From the sequence record NC_105825.1: DNA of 64,000 nucleotides. One strand, 5' to 3'. The position numbers and the translations under genes were made by a program. The notes under the pieces are model-generated. The model worked only from the letters and a program-made list of their open reading frames with translations, was not told where the DNA came from and made no database searches. Shown piece after piece: positions 3,634 to 17,645 of this stretch (positions are counted from its first letter, which is position 1; every line of letters begins with the position of its first letter). Origin of the DNA: Escherichia phage ECOP18.

Positions 3634-4077
3634 GTAATTTCTGGAAATGTGTTTTGGAAAAATGCCCTCTAGAAATAACCGCCCTCCCAATAACCGCCCT
3701 GTATTAAACCGCCTAGTATATGTTCCTAGAAACTTAGGAGAACCGCCCTAGAAAGAGGGAGTATTTCGTGAGAACTCTGGAGTTTCTAGGAAAGTGTTGT
3801 GCCATCCTAGCAGAAGAGCGGCAACCGGTGTATCATCTTGAACACAAATATTGCCTTTAAATATTTTTAGTTATTTAAAAGTAAATATACCCCCATTTCA
3901 TGTGAGATTCCTCGTGGGGCGCGTGAGTATTACGGAAGAACTCTAATATTGGCCCGCGCTAAGACTAGCCGCTATAGCACAGACGCAAATAGAGTTGTAA
4001 TAATCATCGCCCCTAGAGTTCACAATAAGAGTTATTGTTAATCTATGAGATTATTATAACATACATTTTTAATAACG

Positions 4078-4833
4078 TCAAGAAGATTTTACTAATGTTT
4101 TTGGATTCTTCTTGGCTTTGAGATATATCCCTTTAGATGCTAGATAGATATATGTTGCTAGAAATGAAGATTCTGATCCCGATTCCTCATAGGTTAACGT
4201 ACCTCTAGGGTATTTATTTGTTTTAGGAGCATAGTTAAGCACAGCCGCAGTTAATGACCCTAATCCTAGAACATCTGCAAGACGTCTAAAGGTATTCTCT
4301 TCATCATGGATAGCATAAAGAATGTTATCTTCAATATCCGTTAATGGAATTTTACGGGTATGAGATACTGCAATCCGTGCTATCATAGCTCCAATTGTTT
4401 TATTAATATCCTCGAAAGAAACACTCTCCATATATTTTAGAGGGGGAAGATGGTCATATTTACATTTCTTAGGTGGAATAAGAAGTTGTTCAGGATAAGC
4501 CTCTAGTGCCTGACGAACGTTTGCTTCTGGATATGTTGGTAAAGGTTCATCTATAATAACATGTAAGAAATTAGCTCTGTGCCCCTTAGCAGTTGGATCT
4601 AAAGACTTCAATATTTTGTTCATATCCACGTATGAATACGCTAGATCTGCTTGAGGAGCATTAATATCAAACTTAATCTTCTTACCTTCCCATTTAGCAG
4701 GGAACATCTCACAAACAAACATTACTGCATGTTTAACATCTGGCTCTAGCTCTGATAGACATTTGTGATCTGCTGTTACTGCTAAAGCGAGTATATTCTT
4801 AAATTTATTAGCTTCTTCAATCATATATCCCAT
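4078..4833 (-). CDS. hypothetical protein
   Basis: ORF track 251 aa; first gene of the minus-strand block. Confidence 0.55.
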   Translation of the reverse strand: MGYMIEEANKFKNILALAVTADHKCLSELEPDVKHAVMFVCEMFPAKWEGKKIKFDINAPQADLAYSYVDMNKILKSLDPTAKGHRANFLHVIIDEPLPTYPEANVRQALEAYPEQLLIPPKKCKYDHLPPLKYMESVSFEDINKTIGAMIARIAVSHTRKIPLTDIEDNILYAIHDEENTFRRLADVLGLGSLTAAVLNYAPKTNKYPRGTLTYEESGSESSFLATYIYLASKGIYLKAKKNPKTLVKSS

Positions 4834-12984: not shown

Positions 12985-13059
12985 AATATATACCTCTCTT
13001 AACTAATTTATGTATATATTATATAATAACTAGGGCTAAAAGTCAACTACTTTTTTATC

Positions 13060-13476
13060 TTAATTTACTGCATGTATAAATCTTTTCCTAACTAGATACA
13101 TAGTTATTGGGTAAATTGAGTACATAAGTATCGGGGAGAAAAGGGTGAAATACGCTGTAACTCCCCCAGCTAACATCAAAGGTATTAATGCTAGAGTAAG
13201 GGCCATAAGAATCATACCGAATGAAACAGCCAAAGCTATGGATATAGGATTCTCTAGTTCCATCCATAACCAACAATATTTCGTATCTCTATGGCAATTG
13301 CATTTACAAACGCCGAATGAACCCATAATTATATACTCTAGTCCGTGAATAACCTTTATTAATAAGCTATTTCGGGTAGTTAATGCAATGATAGTAAAGA
13401 CTATCATTAAAACGAATACTACTAGACTTATTTTCCAGATACCTAGCAGCATCATAGTGAATAGTTCTGCAAACAT
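13060..13476 (-). CDS. multi-pass membrane protein
   Basis: 138 aa, at least 3 hydrophobic segments. Confidence 0.5.
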   Translation of the reverse strand: MFAELFTMMLLGIWKISLVVFVLMIVFTIIALTTRNSLLIKVIHGLEYIIMGSFGVCKCNCHRDTKYCWLWMELENPISIALAVSFGMILMALTLALIPLMLAGGVTAYFTLFSPILMYSIYPITMYLVRKRFIHAVN

Positions 13477-13553
13477 GGCTTTCTCCTATCTTCAAAAATT
13501 ATTAAAGCCCCCTTTGCCTAAAAAGGCGGGAATATTCCCGCCTCAGTTATTAA

Positions 13554-13967
13554 TTAAACTAGTTCGACATGACCGCCATCATAGGTACCACGTTTTATTT
13601 CATCGTGATAATCTCCTGAAGCATTCCAATCGGCACCAAAACGAAGTTTAATGCCTAGTTCTTTACCAGCTTGTTCAAAAGCCTTTTTAACTGCCCAAAA
13701 TGCTTCTAGGTCATTCCAATCAATCTTGCCATTAATGTATGGAGCAAAATCAAGAGCATCTCCAGTAATATGCTTGCTTTTACTAGGATCTTTTAAAAAT
13801 GAAGTACCATTAGCAATATTCTGGGCACTTTGTGCTACTGTACGAATACCCTGTACGATCGTGAAATCATATGGAGATAATTCTAAAGCTCTACGAGCTA
13901 CTTTTTGTAGCTCTGGCTTAACGGTAGCTAATTGTTTTTCGCTATTTTTACCAAATTTAAAACTCAT
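13554..13967 (-). CDS. lys: endolysin (L-alanyl-D-glutamate peptidase-like)
   Basis: 137 aa, the size I recall for T5 endolysin; sits immediately downstream of the putative holin; assignment from memory, not a search. Confidence 0.55.
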   Translation of the reverse strand: MSFKFGKNSEKQLATVKPELQKVARRALELSPYDFTIVQGIRTVAQSAQNIANGTSFLKDPSKSKHITGDALDFAPYINGKIDWNDLEAFWAVKKAFEQAGKELGIKLRFGADWNASGDYHDEIKRGTYDGGHVELV

Positions 13968-14620
13968 ATTGATCTACCTAAAGATCTCTGTTGTGGGGAA
14001 CAGAGCTTTGTTAAATACTCGTTAAATTTCTCAGAATCGGCTGCATCTACAGGATTATCTTTCCAAGCAATACCAATATATCCAGCATAGATATTGTTTA
14101 GATTGAAATACGGACAAGTGTATATGTAATTAAAAGTAACGTTCTTAAACGCAGGTATATTTAACCCCATGTATTTATTTACTTTTACACTTAAATCCGA
14201 CGCGTAGTTAAAGCCGTCTAAGTGACGTCTATATAGCTCAGACGTCTTATTTACCGCTTTATCGGCCAAGTCAGCCCTATCTAATTGCGCATTGCTTTCC
14301 CATGCAATAATGTTAGAATAATCATTAATGGCATCGGGTTTATACTTGACTACAAAAACAGCATCCGCACCCGTTTGGGAAAAAAGCACCATGCTCTTTT
14401 CTCTAGCTACGTTAGGAAAATTACTTATCCTTTGAGTTTGAACATCCTGTAGAACCGCAGACGTGGAGAAAGTCTTTAAGAATGACATCACCTCACTAGT
14501 ATTACTAACAAATAAGAAAATAATGACAGCAACTAAGATAGTTAGCAGACGTTTAAGAAGCGATGCTGGATCTTTCGCTTCTTGGAGCAGTACCGTTAAT
14601 AATTGTAAGAACTTTTCCAA
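13964..14620 (-). CDS. hol: putative holin
   Basis: 218 aa; N-terminal TM helix; TTG start with GGAGG RBS; 4-nt overlap with the endolysin gene. Confidence 0.45.
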   Translation of the reverse strand: MEKFLQLLTVLLQEAKDPASLLKRLLTILVAVIIFLFVSNTSEVMSFLKTFSTSAVLQDVQTQRISNFPNVAREKSMVLFSQTGADAVFVVKYKPDAINDYSNIIAWESNAQLDRADLADKAVNKTSELYRRHLDGFNYASDLSVKVNKYMGLNIPAFKNVTFNYIYTCPYFNLNNIYAGYIGIAWKDNPVDAADSEKFNEYLTKLCSPQQRSLGRSI

Positions 14621-14737
14621 TTGTAACCTCCTCTAACCAGTACCATTATACTAATTTTGGAGGAAAATTACAATGTGTTTTTAAAGATTTTCTTTGGAGC
14701 ACAAAATTTTGTCGTTGTCAAGAAGAATTTTAGATAA

Positions 14738-14770
14738 AAGAAAAGCCAGGGTCGTTAAACCCTGGCTTAA
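14738..14770 (-). terminator. rho-independent terminator
   Basis: Hairpin ccagggt/accctgg followed by a U-run on the minus transcript, just after the ClpP-like gene. Confidence 0.55.
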
Positions 14771-14776
14771 AACTAC

Positions 14777-15376
14777 TTACTCTTCTTTATGCTCCTCTGA
14801 TTGAGGTAACTGGGCTTTATTATACTGCTCAGATCGATATTTTGCCAAGATTTCAATACGCTTATGGATTTCTTTGCTATCTAGATAGATATTTTTGTTG
14901 TATTTTACCATCTCGTCGATTTCGTCTATTGAGAAGAACGGATAGTAGACATCTAGCATCATATCTTCTACTAACTTGTTGTAAGATTCATAGGCTTTCT
15001 TGATTTCTTGACCCTTCTCACAGAATCCGCCAGAGAACGTGTGTCCCATTAGCGTAGCATGTGGATGTACTACCCATCCATGACAGGATAGGAAAATTGT
15101 ACAGTAAGCAGAAGCACTAGGACCAACCAGATGCCCTATAACTGTTCCACGGCAATTAGCAATTAAGTTAGATAACTGTGCAGCAGTATCAACATAACCA
15201 CCTGGGCCATTAATCATCAGATTAATTTCGTCGTCCTCATTTGCCTGCATAAGTACCATTGATAAATCACGGTATTCATCCGGCGGGCCTAATTCTTCAT
15301 CAAAGAAAAAGGTATACTCATTAGATTGGCGAATGGAGTGAAACAGGTTAGTCTTTTCTTCTTTTTTATTAGTCAT
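14777..15376 (-). CDS. ClpP-like serine protease
   Basis: 199 aa; NGPGG and S14-like core residues. Confidence 0.5.
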   Translation of the reverse strand: MTNKKEEKTNLFHSIRQSNEYTFFFDEELGPPDEYRDLSMVLMQANEDDEINLMINGPGGYVDTAAQLSNLIANCRGTVIGHLVGPSASAYCTIFLSCHGWVVHPHATLMGHTFSGGFCEKGQEIKKAYESYNKLVEDMMLDVYYPFFSIDEIDEMVKYNKNIYLDSKEIHKRIEILAKYRSEQYNKAQLPQSEEHKEE

Positions 15377-15388
15377 AGCGATCCTTGA

Positions 15389-16141
15389 TTATCCAACTAG
15401 TGGTTCTAGCTCTAAGTCACAGAAGTTATAAACTTCTAGTTTAAGGTTATTGATACCATCGAATTTATTAACTAATTCGTGAGTAATATATTTTGCAGGA
15501 ATACCACTTTCAGATGGATGATCTGATTTAATAGTGAACTTCTGCTCAGCGGGTACTACATTTACTATCAAAGAATCCATATCTAAATGGTTTGTTTCTC
15601 TGAGTAACTCTCCTTCATTGGGGAATCTAACATCTGTTATTACGGCGACATCTGGGTCGTCTTTAAAGATGGATTGCTCCAGAATTATGAGCCAAATGCG
15701 TTCATGCACCAGCTGCCTTCCTAGCTCTGTCCCTACGAGCTGTAACATTTTTCTCGGAGAAATAAATAAACTATAAAGTCCGTCTTCTTTATTCTCTGAG
15801 ATAAGTTGTTGAGGATTAAGATATTTTTCCTCAAAAATAGGCCAAACGTACGAGAAGTCTTCAAACTTATCGATACCGTACTTAAACCACACATCTCTGG
15901 CTCGCTCCAATTGAGATTGTGTGACCGTAAACCATTGGTCAATCTCTTTTCCTCTGCGCTCTCCTAGAAACTCTGGAGTTACACCGAGGATTACGGATGC
16001 AAGTTCATAAACAGGCTTAGCAAAACTATAACGACGGGATAAACACGTTGGATACGTGTCATTACACCAATCGATAATTAATTTTGCAACGGTATCTTTT
16101 CCCGAACCAGCTTCACCATGTAAACCAACTAATACTGACAT
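15389..16141 (-). CDS. P-loop kinase (dNMP-kinase-like)
   Basis: 250 aa; Walker A GEAGSGKDT at the N-terminus. Confidence 0.55.
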   Translation of the reverse strand: MSVLVGLHGEAGSGKDTVAKLIIDWCNDTYPTCLSRRYSFAKPVYELASVILGVTPEFLGERRGKEIDQWFTVTQSQLERARDVWFKYGIDKFEDFSYVWPIFEEKYLNPQQLISENKEDGLYSLFISPRKMLQLVGTELGRQLVHERIWLIILEQSIFKDDPDVAVITDVRFPNEGELLRETNHLDMDSLIVNVVPAEQKFTIKSDHPSESGIPAKYITHELVNKFDGINNLKLEVYNFCDLELEPLVG

Positions 16142-16494
16142 TAATCTTTCCTATTGTTAATTGGTGGATAGTAAACTAAGCAACGTTTTTCTTGTAAATC
16201 TTGGCGATAGAAGCAAACCATACCAGTCAGTCGTGAGATATATGAATATTCTGCCTCGCGGCATTTTGCCAACATATTCCAATCTTTATATGGTACAACA
16301 ACTACTACGCCATCTTCGCCATTTGTAGCTAATTTCTTTTCGAATTTGAAATCAAAGCTACAAGGCTGAAGTCCTTTAGGCCAGTCTACATGAGCTTGCT
16401 TTAACTCATGAGATGACTCTGGTTTTATTTCTTCTGCACAGCCTGTGATTGTGATTGCGGCTGCGAGCAGTATTCCAAGTTTCCAGTTAAACAC
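16141..16494 (-). CDS. lipoprotein (possible o-spanin)
   Basis: 117 aa; lipobox LAAAITITGC; 70-nt out-of-frame overlap with the upstream TM/coiled-coil gene. Confidence 0.4.
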   Translation of the reverse strand: MFNWKLGILLAAAITITGCAEEIKPESSHELKQAHVDWPKGLQPCSFDFKFEKKLATNGEDGVVVVVPYKDWNMLAKCREAEYSYISRLTGMVCFYRQDLQEKRCLVYYPPINNRKD

Positions 16495-16874
16495 GCTAAT
16501 CTTTCCTCGAACTCTTTACTCTGCTTTTTAGCAATTAATGTTACCAATCCAGGCTTTGCAGCTATAATATCTTGGCGACTAAGAGCTTTATCTAACTGCT
16601 TAATCTTTTTGTCTAGATCTGCTTGCGAAATATTATTCATTGTGAAATACTGATTCATTCTAGTCTCACGAAGTTCACTTTCAGCTTTCACCTTATTAAG
16701 GGAAGCCTCTAGAGAAGAAATCTTTTTAGTAGCTACCGCAAGATCTCCCGCTAAAGTCTCCACTTTATCTACTAAGTGATAAGCACCGAATCCGATGCCT
16801 ATCGCTAGACCTGCTCCCAGGATATACCACTTACCGTGCCATATTCCTGAAAGAAGTTTTTGTATCAAATCCAT
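16425..16874 (-). CDS. TM plus coiled-coil protein (possible i-spanin)
   Basis: 149 aa; N-terminal TM helix then a long predicted coiled coil. Confidence 0.4.
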   Translation of the reverse strand: MDLIQKLLSGIWHGKWYILGAGLAIGIGFGAYHLVDKVETLAGDLAVATKKISSLEASLNKVKAESELRETRMNQYFTMNNISQADLDKKIKQLDKALSRQDIIAAKPGLVTLIAKKQSKEFEERLACLTGNLEYCSQPQSQSQAVQKK

Positions 16875-17529
16875 GCGCTGCTAACCTGTCTTTATCTGAT
16901 ACTTTAATCATATCAGGCTCACCAGTTCCTAGTACACCGAAGATATACTGTTCGAGAACTTGGTGTAAACGGTATAAGTTACTTTCAATTTCCTGCCACG
17001 GAATACCGGACTGATGGAAACGAATGTTAGTCTGAATTACGAAGTTACGAACATCATCGTTATCGTTCTTCTTAATACCTTTCACATATGCAATTGGTAC
17101 ACGCAGTTCGGATAAGATGCGTTCTGCTTTAGGTTTTGCTTCAGCGAGCAAATCACGCATTGTTTCACGAACATCTCCGAGACTCTTATCCATTAAGTAA
17201 GAGCGAGCATGTAATCCCATCTCTTCCATTTTATCGAACATAGAGTCGAGGTTGAACGTTTTGAAGCTAAATGCTGGATGCCAGCAGTATAGCTCGTGTA
17301 ACCAGTAAACTTCACCTGCAACAAATAGTGGGTTTACAAAATATTCGAAATCACCACGGAAAGATAGCGAACCATCACGAAATACCTGGCGACTATGCAC
17401 GATGTTCTTTTCTGCATCATCAGTTACTTTAACCAGTAACTCTTCAGTTTTACGCTCCCAAACACGATCTGGGTCGAACAAACTGTTCTGCAAATCATAC
17501 ACATCGGCGAACTTAGAAATAATCCTCAT
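16831..17529 (-). CDS. hypothetical protein
   Basis: ORF track 232 aa; RBS in the leader. Confidence 0.55.
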   Translation of the reverse strand: MRIISKFADVYDLQNSLFDPDRVWERKTEELLVKVTDDAEKNIVHSRQVFRDGSLSFRGDFEYFVNPLFVAGEVYWLHELYCWHPAFSFKTFNLDSMFDKMEEMGLHARSYLMDKSLGDVRETMRDLLAEAKPKAERILSELRVPIAYVKGIKKNDNDDVRNFVIQTNIRFHQSGIPWQEIESNLYRLHQVLEQYIFGVLGTGEPDMIKVSDKDRLAAHGFDTKTSFRNMAR

Positions 17530-17560
17530 ATTTAATCCTCTTGCCTCAATCTATAAACAT

Positions 17561-17589
17561 ATTATACAAAAGTTTGGGCATCTAAGCAA
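17561..17589 (-). promoter_or_regulatory. early sigma70-type promoter (TTGCTT-17-TATAAT)
   Basis: Same architecture. Confidence 0.6.
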
Positions 17590-17611
17590 CTAAAATTTTA
17601 TTATAAAAATA

Positions 17612-17645
17612 GCCCAGTCGCAAAAGTGCAGGCTGGGCTTTGTCA
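17612..17645 (-). terminator. rho-independent terminator (hairpin could act on both strands)
   Basis: agcccag...ctgggct hairpin with T/U runs on both sides. Confidence 0.5.

What the first reader, a model, noticed from the sequence alone, without database searches (positions are those of the whole stretch)
16141..16874. Overlapping TM/coiled-coil gene and lipoprotein gene (spanin-like pair) detached from the holin-endolysin pair
A 149-aa protein with an N-terminal TM helix and long coiled coil is followed by a 117-aa lipoprotein (lipobox LAAAITITGC) whose start lies 70 nt inside the first gene in another frame. This is the classic embedded/overlapped Rz/Rz1 architecture. The pair sits about 1.5 kb from the putative holin/endolysin (13554-14620), separated by ClpP-like and kinase genes.
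Basis: inference. Interest (0 to 1): 0.45.

Follow-up and report, generated by a model that had tools for sequence, protein, structure and literature searches.

The report
T5-type overlapped spanin gene pair
This is the already catalogued pair of phage T5-family "spanin" genes, which are predicted to break the bacterial outer membrane at the end of infection, so the finding is correct but ordinary.

Summary
On the minus strand, a 149-aa protein (16425-16874) has an N-terminal transmembrane helix and a helical periplasmic domain with heptad periodicity. It is followed by a 117-aa lipoprotein (16141-16494; GTG start, lipobox ITG|C, Cys19). The lipoprotein gene starts 70 nt inside the first gene, in another frame.

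The window is a T5-like phage (Tequintavirus, about 98% identical to sequenced relatives). The two genes are the orthologues of T5 T5.045 and T5.044 (88% and 95% aa identity). Curated records (T5, Stitch, DaisyDussoix) annotate them as i-spanin and o-spanin with the same geometry.

Kongari et al. 2018 (PMC6139136) list the T5 family as "overlapped" and state that the T5 spanins overlap by 70 bp. Both proteins fall in the same PHROGs as T4 PseT.3/PseT.2, a spanin pair tested by complementation. The two cysteines essential in PseT.2 are conserved.

Separation from the holin-endolysin pair by dNMP kinase and a Clp-like protease is conserved across T5-like phages and resembles T4.

- The architecture is overlapped, not embedded.
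- By sequence the pair is of the T4 PseT type, not the lambda Rz/Rz1 type.

No experiment on the T5 pair itself was found. Verdict: already known, low interest.

The parts
16425..16874 (-). i-spanin gene (149 aa, ATG start); orthologue of T5 T5.045 and homologue of T4 PseT.3
   Evidence: ORF. PHROG 739 'Rz-like spanin', E = 2.6e-37. 88% identity to T5.045 and 95% to the Stitch i-spanin. BLASTP to T4 PseT.3, E = 5e-6.
16773..16829 (-). Codons for the N-terminal transmembrane helix of the i-spanin (about residues 16-34)
   Evidence: Best Kyte-Doolittle 19-residue window is residues 17-35, mean 1.55. Helical in the AF2 model.
16141..16494 (-). o-spanin gene (117 aa, GTG start; outer-membrane lipoprotein precursor); orthologue of T5 T5.044 and homologue of T4 PseT.2
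   Evidence: ORF. PHROG 812, E = 1.2e-29. 95% identity to T5.044. BLASTP to T4 PseT.2, E = 3e-7. Annotated as o-spanin with the same gene length and overlap in Stitch and DaisyDussoix.
16438..16449 (-). Lipobox I-T-G-C (residues 16-19 of the o-spanin); Cys19 is the predicted lipidated residue, followed by Ala (+2)
   Evidence: G18 and C19 are invariant in alignment A2, which includes the Klebsiella, Proteus and T4 homologues.
16425..16494 (-). 70-nt dual-coding overlap. It encodes the i-spanin C-terminal tail (ACLTGNLEYCSQPQSQSQAVQKK, with both of its Cys) and the o-spanin signal peptide in the +2 frame
   Evidence: 0-1 substitutions here against 1.3-10.6% in the flanking single-coding parts. 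Kongari et al. 2018 state that the T5 spanins overlap by 70 bp.
16501..16508 (-). Shine-Dalgarno-like GAGGAAAG, 6 nt upstream of the o-spanin GTG
   Evidence: The RBS annotated in Stitch falls on the AGGA core of this site.
13964..14620 (-). T-type holin (218 aa)
   Evidence: Pfam PF11031 Phage_holin_T, E = 4.8e-113. PHROG 860 holin.
13554..13967 (-). Endolysin, L-alanyl-D-glutamate peptidase (137 aa)
   Evidence: PDB 2MXZ (L-alanyl-D-glutamate peptidase), E = 1.3e-90 over the full length. PHROG 465 endolysin.
14743..14768 (-). Terminator-like hairpin after the Clp-like protease gene. It appears to end the transcription unit that holds the spanins
   Evidence: 11-bp stem, 6 G-C pairs, followed by a T-rich tail. 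A terminator is annotated at the same place in T5 and Stitch.
14645..14673 (-). Promoter-like site upstream of the holin (TTGTAA-17-TATAAT)
   Evidence: Consensus scan only. A promoter is annotated at the equivalent place in T5.
17595..17623 (-). Promoter-like site upstream of ORF232 (TTGCGA-17-TAAAAT), a candidate start of the ORF232/i-spanin/o-spanin/dnk/Clp-like unit
   Evidence: Consensus scan only. A promoter is annotated upstream of T5.047 in T5.
14777..16141 (-). dNMP kinase (15389-16141) and Clp-like protease (14777-15376) genes, lying between the spanins and the holin. The dnk ATG overlaps the o-spanin TAA (TAATG)
   Evidence: Pfam DNMK, E = 1e-11, and CLP_protease, E = 3.6e-8. Junction sequence GATTAATGTC.

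Best explanation
The two genes encode the two-component spanin of a T5-like phage.

- The 149-aa protein is the i-spanin. It is anchored in the inner membrane by its N-terminal helix and has a helical, partly coiled-coil domain in the periplasm.
- The 117-aa protein is the o-spanin. It is exported and lipidated at Cys19. Because Ala, not Asp, follows the Cys, it should be sorted to the inner leaflet of the outer membrane.

By analogy with lambda Rz/Rz1 and T4 PseT.3/PseT.2, the two bind through their periplasmic domains into a complex that spans the periplasm. The complex is held in check by the peptidoglycan mesh. Once the T-type holin (13964-14620) lets the L-Ala-D-Glu peptidase (13554-13967) destroy the wall, the complex changes shape and fuses the inner and outer membranes. 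That removes the last barrier to phage release.

Shown here: gene structure, topology signals, homology, conservation and synteny.
Inferred from the family: localisation, complex formation, disulfide bonding, membrane fusion and timing.

The pair appears to be transcribed with ORF232, dNMP kinase and the Clp-like protease. This unit is separate from the holin-endolysin unit, which has its own predicted promoter.
For: - ORFs, 70-nt overlap, TM helix, lipobox and SD site.
- PHROG 739 and 812 'Rz-like spanin', E = 2.6e-37 and 1.2e-29. T4 PseT.3 and PseT.2 hit the same two PHROGs, E = 1.3e-37 and 5e-42.
- BLASTP to T4 PseT.3, E = 5e-6, and to PseT.2, E = 3e-7.
- The two Cys of PseT.2 that Kongari et al. 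showed to be essential (C87, C98) align with invariant C94 and C105 here.
- 88% and 95% identity to T5 T5.045 and T5.044, annotated as spanins. The same annotation appears in Stitch and DaisyDussoix.
- PMC6139136 lists the T5 family as overlapped with a 70-bp overlap, and reports that T4 pseT.3/pseT.2 complement lambda Rz-am Rz1-am.
- The gene order i-spanin, o-spanin, dnk, Clp-like protease, holin, endolysin is kept in T5 and in a Klebsiella T5-like phage at only 37-45% aa identity.
- The overlap is under stronger constraint than its flanks.
Against: - No experiment on a T5-family spanin was found in the searchable literature. Function rests on homology to T4 at about 28% identity and on topology signals.
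- Pfam and NCBIfam have no significant model for either protein.
- The single-sequence AF2 models are of low confidence: pLDDT 65 for the i-spanin and 48 for the o-spanin.
- Signal-peptidase II processing, outer-membrane sorting and expression timing were not testable here.
- The promoter and terminator calls are consensus matches. Their number is no greater than in shuffled sequence.
Confidence: 0.93

Rival explanations
1. The 117-aa lipoprotein is not a lysis protein. It is a lytic-conversion or superinfection-exclusion lipoprotein, like T5 Llp or the Cor proteins, which block the phage receptor. It happens to lie next to a bitopic membrane protein.
For: It is a small phage lipoprotein apparently co-transcribed with an early-type gene (dnk) rather than with the holin and endolysin. 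T5-like phages are known to encode the lipoprotein Llp, as mentioned in PMC4342426.
Against: - It falls in the same PHROG as T4 PseT.2, which is experimentally a spanin subunit. The essential Cys pair is conserved.
- In every homologue examined here (T5-like, Klebsiella, Proteus T4-like, T4) it is paired with an upstream PseT.3-type TM/coiled-coil gene.
- PMC4342426 treats Llp as a protein separate from the spanins.
Confidence: 0.03
2. The overlapping start of the second ORF is not used. Only a shorter downstream product is made, or none, as some GenBank records imply by annotating only a 135-156-nt 3' fragment. There would then be no lipoprotein and no two-component spanin.
For: HMD-P5 and Klebsiella phage K7_rec7 annotate only the 3' fragment, and vB_Sen-E22 annotates nothing there. 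The start codon in the window is GTG, not ATG.
Against: - There is no alternative ATG, GTG or TTG in the first 30 codons of the ORF.
- An SD-like GAGGAAAG lies at the right spacing.
- The same position is ATG in T5 and in the Klebsiella phage.
- The signal peptide and lipobox are conserved in T5-like phages and in T4-like homologues.
- The short annotations are best explained as gene callers avoiding a long overlap.
Confidence: 0.03
3. The 149-aa protein is an FtsL-like or other bitopic coiled-coil protein that acts on host cell division, rather than an i-spanin.
For: A weak NCBIfam match to FtsL_COG5462: E = 1.1e-4, 21.8 bits.
Against: The score is far below the curated cut-off of 50 bits. 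The match covers only the TM helix plus the first coiled-coil turns (residues 17-67), a generic architecture. The PHROG 739 match is about 33 orders of magnitude stronger and covers the whole periplasmic domain.
Confidence: 0.01

Closest known systems
Phage T5 spanins T5.045 (i-spanin) and T5.044 (o-spanin); the 'T5 family' of Kongari et al. 2018 (PMC6139136)
   Same: Orthologues at 88% and 95% aa identity. Same 70-nt overlap, same lipobox (AAITITGC), and the same downstream neighbours: dnk, Clp-like protease, terminator/promoter, holin, endolysin.
   Different: - The o-spanin start is GTG here and ATG in T5.
- The i-spanin is 149 aa against 147 aa, with a different N-terminal 15 residues or so.
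- T5 carries the HNH homing endonuclease hegF between T5.047 and the i-spanin. Here hegF is absent, and the i-spanin start lies 44 nt inside ORF232.
Phage T4 PseT.3 / PseT.2 (separated two-component spanin; complements lambda Rz/Rz1)
   Same: - Same PHROGs (739, 812).
- Alignable TM helix, first periplasmic helix and KPGLV motif in the i-spanin.
- In the o-spanin: lipobox, HxxWP motif and the two C-terminal Cys that are essential in T4.
- Also located away from the holin and endolysin (legend to Fig. 8 of PMC6139136).
   Different: - Only about 28% identity, below the 40% family threshold of Kongari et al.
- The T4 genes count as 'separated' in PMC6139136 (the annotated CDSs share 4 nt), whereas here the overlap is 70 nt.
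- The T5-type i-spanin has a tail of about 25 residues with two Cys, which PseT.3 lacks.
- The T5-type o-spanin has two extra Cys (C45, C78).
Lambda Rz / Rz1 (embedded two-component spanin)
   Same: The same functional logic and topology: an inner-membrane protein anchored by an N-terminal TM helix, plus an outer-membrane lipoprotein encoded in another frame of shared DNA.
   Different: - Rz1 is wholly embedded in Rz, whereas here only 70 nt are shared.
- Neither window protein has any Pfam match at E <= 0.01.
- Rz1 is a 40-aa proline-rich unstructured peptide. This o-spanin has a 98-aa mature part and, like T4 PseT.2, a predicted beta/alpha domain.
- The lambda genes sit in the lysis cassette.
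Shivani / phiR201-type T5-family spanins (separated by a homing endonuclease gene)
   Same: The same protein family.
   Different: In those phages a GIY-YIG endonuclease gene of about 700 bp separates the two spanin genes. The window has the uninterrupted overlapped form.

Membership tests
Two-component spanin (functional class, criteria of Summer 2007 / Kongari 2018) | i-spanin: N-terminal transmembrane domain with a mostly helical, coiled-coil periplasmic domain | tested here: met
   Hydrophobic window at residues 17-35, KD 1.55. AF2 helices at 2-79, 84-101, 108-116 and 120-129. Heptad periodicity over residues 35-79, reached by 0.3% of shuffles.
Two-component spanin (functional class, criteria of Summer 2007 / Kongari 2018) | o-spanin: lipoprotein signal sequence with lipobox and Cys, and no inner-membrane retention signal (Asp at +2) | tested here: met
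   MFNWKLGILLAAAITITG|CAEE, with Ala at +2. Gly-Cys is invariant in the homologues. No SignalP or LipoP was available, so the test was by pattern and hydropathy only.
Two-component spanin (functional class, criteria of Summer 2007 / Kongari 2018) | Adjacent genes, i-spanin first, in embedded, overlapped or separated arrangement | tested here: met
   Overlapped: 70 nt shared, o-spanin in the +2 frame and extending 284 nt beyond the i-spanin stop.
Two-component spanin (functional class, criteria of Summer 2007 / Kongari 2018) | Periplasmic cysteines available for intermolecular disulfide bonds | tested here: met
   i-spanin C128 and C136; mature o-spanin C45, C78, C94 and C105. Whether the bonds form was not testable.
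Two-component spanin (functional class, criteria of Summer 2007 / Kongari 2018) | Required for outer-membrane disruption; complements lambda Rz-am Rz1-am | not testable with these tools
   No experiment on a T5-family pair was found. The T4 homologues do complement.
T5 spanin family (Kongari 2018: at least 40% identity over at least 40% of the length) | Sequence identity to T5 T5.045 and T5.044 above the threshold | tested here: met
   88% (i-spanin) and 95% (o-spanin) over the full length.
T5 spanin family (Kongari 2018: at least 40% identity over at least 40% of the length) | 70-bp overlap of the two genes (the overlapped members of the family) | tested here: met
   70 nt in the window, T5, Stitch, DaisyDussoix, HMD-P5 and E22. 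Published value: 70 bp.
T4 PseT.3/PseT.2 superfamily (PHROG 739 / PHROG 812) | Significant profile match of both proteins to the same families as T4 PseT.3 and PseT.2 | tested here: met
   Window proteins: E = 2.6e-37 and 1.2e-29. T4 proteins: E = 1.3e-37 and 5e-42, to the same PHROGs. Pairwise BLASTP: E = 5e-6 and 3e-7.
T4 PseT.3/PseT.2 superfamily (PHROG 739 / PHROG 812) | The two C-terminal Cys of the o-spanin that are essential in T4 (C87, C98) | tested here: met
   They align with invariant C94 and C105. Their essential role in T4 is from PMC6139136.
Lambda Rz / Rz1 sequence families and embedded architecture | Sequence match to lambda-type Rz and Rz1 families, with the o-spanin gene wholly inside the i-spanin gene | tested here: not met
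   No Pfam family at E <= 0.01 for either protein. Only 70 of the 354 nt of the o-spanin gene lie inside the i-spanin gene.

The most novel reading that the evidence does not exclude
The pair seems to be transcribed with ORF232, dNMP kinase and a Clp-like protease, a unit that in T5 lies in the early region. It is not transcribed with the holin and endolysin. The spanin complex may therefore be installed in the envelope long before lysis. The T5-clade additions might then give it a regulatory or second role that the T4 and lambda systems lack, for example redox-gated activation or an early change to the envelope. Those additions are the Cys-bearing i-spanin tail, overprinted on the o-spanin signal-peptide DNA, and two extra o-spanin Cys. 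Nothing here tests this.
Probability: 0.05. Interest if true: 0.35.

Novelty: already known. Interest (0 to 1): 0.07.

Why it matters
It matters little for discovery. The gene pair, its 70-bp overlap and its place in the T5 spanin family are already published and annotated.

Its practical value is for annotation. Many GenBank records of T5-like phages miss the o-spanin or truncate it, because gene callers avoid the long overlap and the GTG start. The correct model is the full 354-nt gene starting inside the i-spanin gene.

The T5-family pair also still lacks direct experimental proof, and that gap would be easy to fill.

Tried and rejected
- Pfam and NCBIfam scans of both proteins. Pfam found nothing. 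NCBIfam gave only sub-threshold FtsL and SctW matches for the i-spanin, rejected as generic TM plus coiled-coil similarity.
- PDB sequence search. No solved relative for the o-spanin, and only chance-level hits (E >= 0.12) for the i-spanin.
- Single-sequence AF2 models of both proteins. Confidence was too low for fold searches (pLDDT 65 and 48), so only the secondary structure was used, with caution.
- Literature searches for experiments on T5.044/T5.045 or on T5 i-/o-spanins. Only bioinformatic treatments and genome announcements were found.
- The promoter and terminator scan gave no more sites than shuffled sequence. I rely on only three of its sites, the terminator and the two promoter-like sites that coincide with regulatory features annotated in T5; the terminator is also annotated in Stitch.
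- The phage collection and the literature had already settled the question.

Full report
**What is there.** All ORFs in 12.5-18.5 kb that have database support lie on the minus strand. The two in the finding are:
- 16425-16874: 149 aa, ATG start.
- 16141-16494: 117 aa, GTG start.

They share 16425-16494, which is 70 nt. The second gene reads in the +2 (= -1) frame relative to the first.

The first protein has one strongly hydrophobic segment, residues 17-35 (Kyte-Doolittle 1.55). A single-sequence AF2 model makes it almost entirely helical up to residue 129, followed by a disordered tail. Confidence is modest (pLDDT 65). Residues 35-79 show a clear heptad pattern: 83% hydrophobic at a/d positions against 27% elsewhere, reached by 0.3% of shuffles.

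The second protein starts MFNWKLGILLAAAITITG|CAEE. This is a lipoprotein signal peptide with Cys19 and Ala at +2. It has four further Cys. A GAGGAAAG Shine-Dalgarno-like site lies 6 nt upstream of the GTG.

**What genome this is.** Megablast of 13000-17600 finds 453 phage records. The best are 97.5-98.1% identical over 100% of the query, and all the best hits are T5-like phages (Demerecviridae, Tequintavirus or Epseptimavirus) of Salmonella and Escherichia.

The neighbours are the known T5 genes:
- T-type holin: Pfam Phage_holin_T, E = 4.8e-113.
- L-alanyl-D-glutamate peptidase endolysin: PDB 2MXZ, E = 1.3e-90.
- Clp-like protease and dNMP kinase.

**The pair is already annotated and published.**
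- The T5 reference record has T5.045 (444 nt) and T5.044 (354 nt). Both are named 'Rz-like spanin', with notes on similarity to T4 PseT.2.
- Phage Stitch and the BASEL phage DaisyDussoix annotate 'i-spanin' (450 nt) and 'o-spanin' (354 nt) with the same gene lengths and the same overlap as in the window.
- Identity of the window proteins is 88% and 95% to T5, and 95% and 94% to Stitch.
- Kongari et al. 2018 (PMC6139136) list a T5 family of i- and o-spanins: T5, EPS7, Stitch, SPC35, AKFV33, FFH1, DT57C, My1, phiR201 and Shivani. They class most members as 'overlapped' and state that 'the T5 spanins overlap by 70 bp'.

**Relation to characterised spanins.**
- Both window proteins hit PHROG 739 and PHROG 812 (E = 2.6e-37 and 1.2e-29). 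T4 PseT.3 and PseT.2 hit the same two PHROGs.
- Pairwise BLASTP to the T4 proteins gives E = 5e-6 and 3e-7 at 28% identity.
- In the o-spanin alignment, G18, C19, H35, W38, P39, C94 and C105 are among the invariant positions from T5-like phages to T4.
- C94 and C105 correspond to PseT.2 C87 and C98. Kongari et al. showed both to be essential, in the same paper that showed pseT.3/pseT.2 complement lambda Rz-am Rz1-am.
- A Proteus T4-like phage (Straboviridae) has the homologous pair in the T4 position, between alc and pseT.
- Neither window protein has any Pfam match at E <= 0.01. So this is a T4-type spanin by descent, and Rz/Rz1-like only in function and topology.

**Evidence that both frames are real.**
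- The o-spanin ORF is the only coding sequence across 284 nt between the i-spanin stop and the dnk start.
- Its stop overlaps the dnk ATG (TAATG).
- tblastn finds it in 551 records, down to 26-46% identity, in Klebsiella, Pectobacterium and Proteus phages.
- In the Klebsiella phage the pair overlaps by 88 nt, starts with ATG, and keeps the lipobox.
- In four close relatives the 70-nt overlap carries 0-1 substitutions. The singly coding parts differ by 1.3-10.6%, as expected for dual coding.

**Detachment from the holin and endolysin.** The order i-spanin, o-spanin, dnk, Clp-like protease, terminator, promoter, holin, endolysin is the same in T5, in Stitch, and in a Klebsiella T5-like phage whose spanins are only 37-45% identical.

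In the window, a strong terminator-like hairpin (14743-14768) follows the protease gene. A promoter-like site (14645-14673) precedes the holin, and another (17595-17623) precedes ORF232. All three sit where T5 has annotated signals. The scan as a whole is no richer in sites than shuffled sequence, so these three count only through that agreement.

The spanins are thus probably in a transcription unit with dnk, apart from the holin-endolysin unit. This step is inferred. T4 likewise keeps its spanins away from t and e. The layout is therefore a known pattern.

**Mechanism (inferred from the family).** The i-spanin sits in the inner membrane and the lipidated o-spanin in the outer membrane. Their periplasmic domains join across the periplasm. 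After holin triggering and wall degradation by the endolysin, the complex is free to change shape and fuse the two membranes.

No experiment on a T5-family pair was found. This last step rests on homology and topology only.

**Differences worth recording.**
- The i-spanin tail, residues 127-149, includes both of its Cys and is encoded entirely within the overlap. It has no counterpart in T4 PseT.3, which has no Cys.
- The i-spanin start lies 44 nt inside ORF232. In T5 the homing endonuclease hegF is inserted at exactly this junction, and the T5 i-spanin has a different N-terminus.
- Several GenBank records truncate or omit the o-spanin.

**Verdict.** The finding is already known and of low interest.

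Noticed in passing
window 16831-16874 (junction of ORF232 and the i-spanin); L006 (T5) 4246-4790: The i-spanin start lies 44 nt inside the 3' end of ORF232 (the T5.047 homologue). In T5 the HNH homing endonuclease gene hegF sits at exactly this junction, and the T5 i-spanin has a different N-terminus (MRKWFVDLVWNNKMY against MDLIQKLLSGIWHGKWY). A remnant of the window-type start (ATGGATTTGATAC...) is still visible in the 3' end of T5.047. The window shows the hegF-free state.
   Followed up: partly
window 16492-16494; L006 3870-3872; L007 4001-4003: The o-spanin start codon is GTG in the window, Stitch, DaisyDussoix, HMD-P5 and E22, but ATG in T5 and in a Klebsiella T5-like phage. The upstream SD-like sequence is the same in all the close relatives.
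   Followed up: yes
L001 (HMD-P5) 4642-4776; L007 (Klebsiella K7_rec7) 4175-4330; L002 (vB_Sen-E22) 3642-3995: Public annotation of this gene is inconsistent. Some records call only a 135-156-nt 3' fragment of the o-spanin, and some call nothing, although the full 354-nt ORF is intact. This is probably because gene callers avoid a long overlap.
   Followed up: yes
window 16425-16494: Both cysteines of the i-spanin (C128, C136) are encoded inside the 70-nt overlap, on the same DNA as the o-spanin signal peptide. T4 PseT.3 lacks this tail and has no Cys. The overlap is nearly invariant among close relatives (0-1 changes).
   Followed up: partly
window about 15955-15960 (inside dnk): The sequence CTGCGCTC matches the site annotated in T5 as a major single-strand interruption (nick) consensus, and sits at the same position in the dNMP kinase gene.
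   Followed up: partly
window 16831-17529: ORF232 (PHROG 4243, function unknown) is labelled 'putative DNA polymerase III subunit epsilon' in HMD-P5. It has no Pfam or NCBIfam support, so the label looks unfounded.
   Followed up: partly
window 13060-13476: A 138-aa ORF just downstream of the endolysin (PHROG 5944, function unknown; the homologue of T5.039) lies next to the lysis genes. The T5 record notes four transmembrane domains in T5.039. Its role is unknown.
   Followed up: no
H64 (Salmonella phage LmqsSP1), H93 (vB_Sen_SG_WM_RUS_R2): Some relatives match the spanin region in two pieces spread over about 1.4 kb, or have an 'endonuclease' annotated beside the spanin. This fits the published Shivani-type separated form, in which a homing endonuclease gene lies between the two spanin genes.
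   Followed up: no
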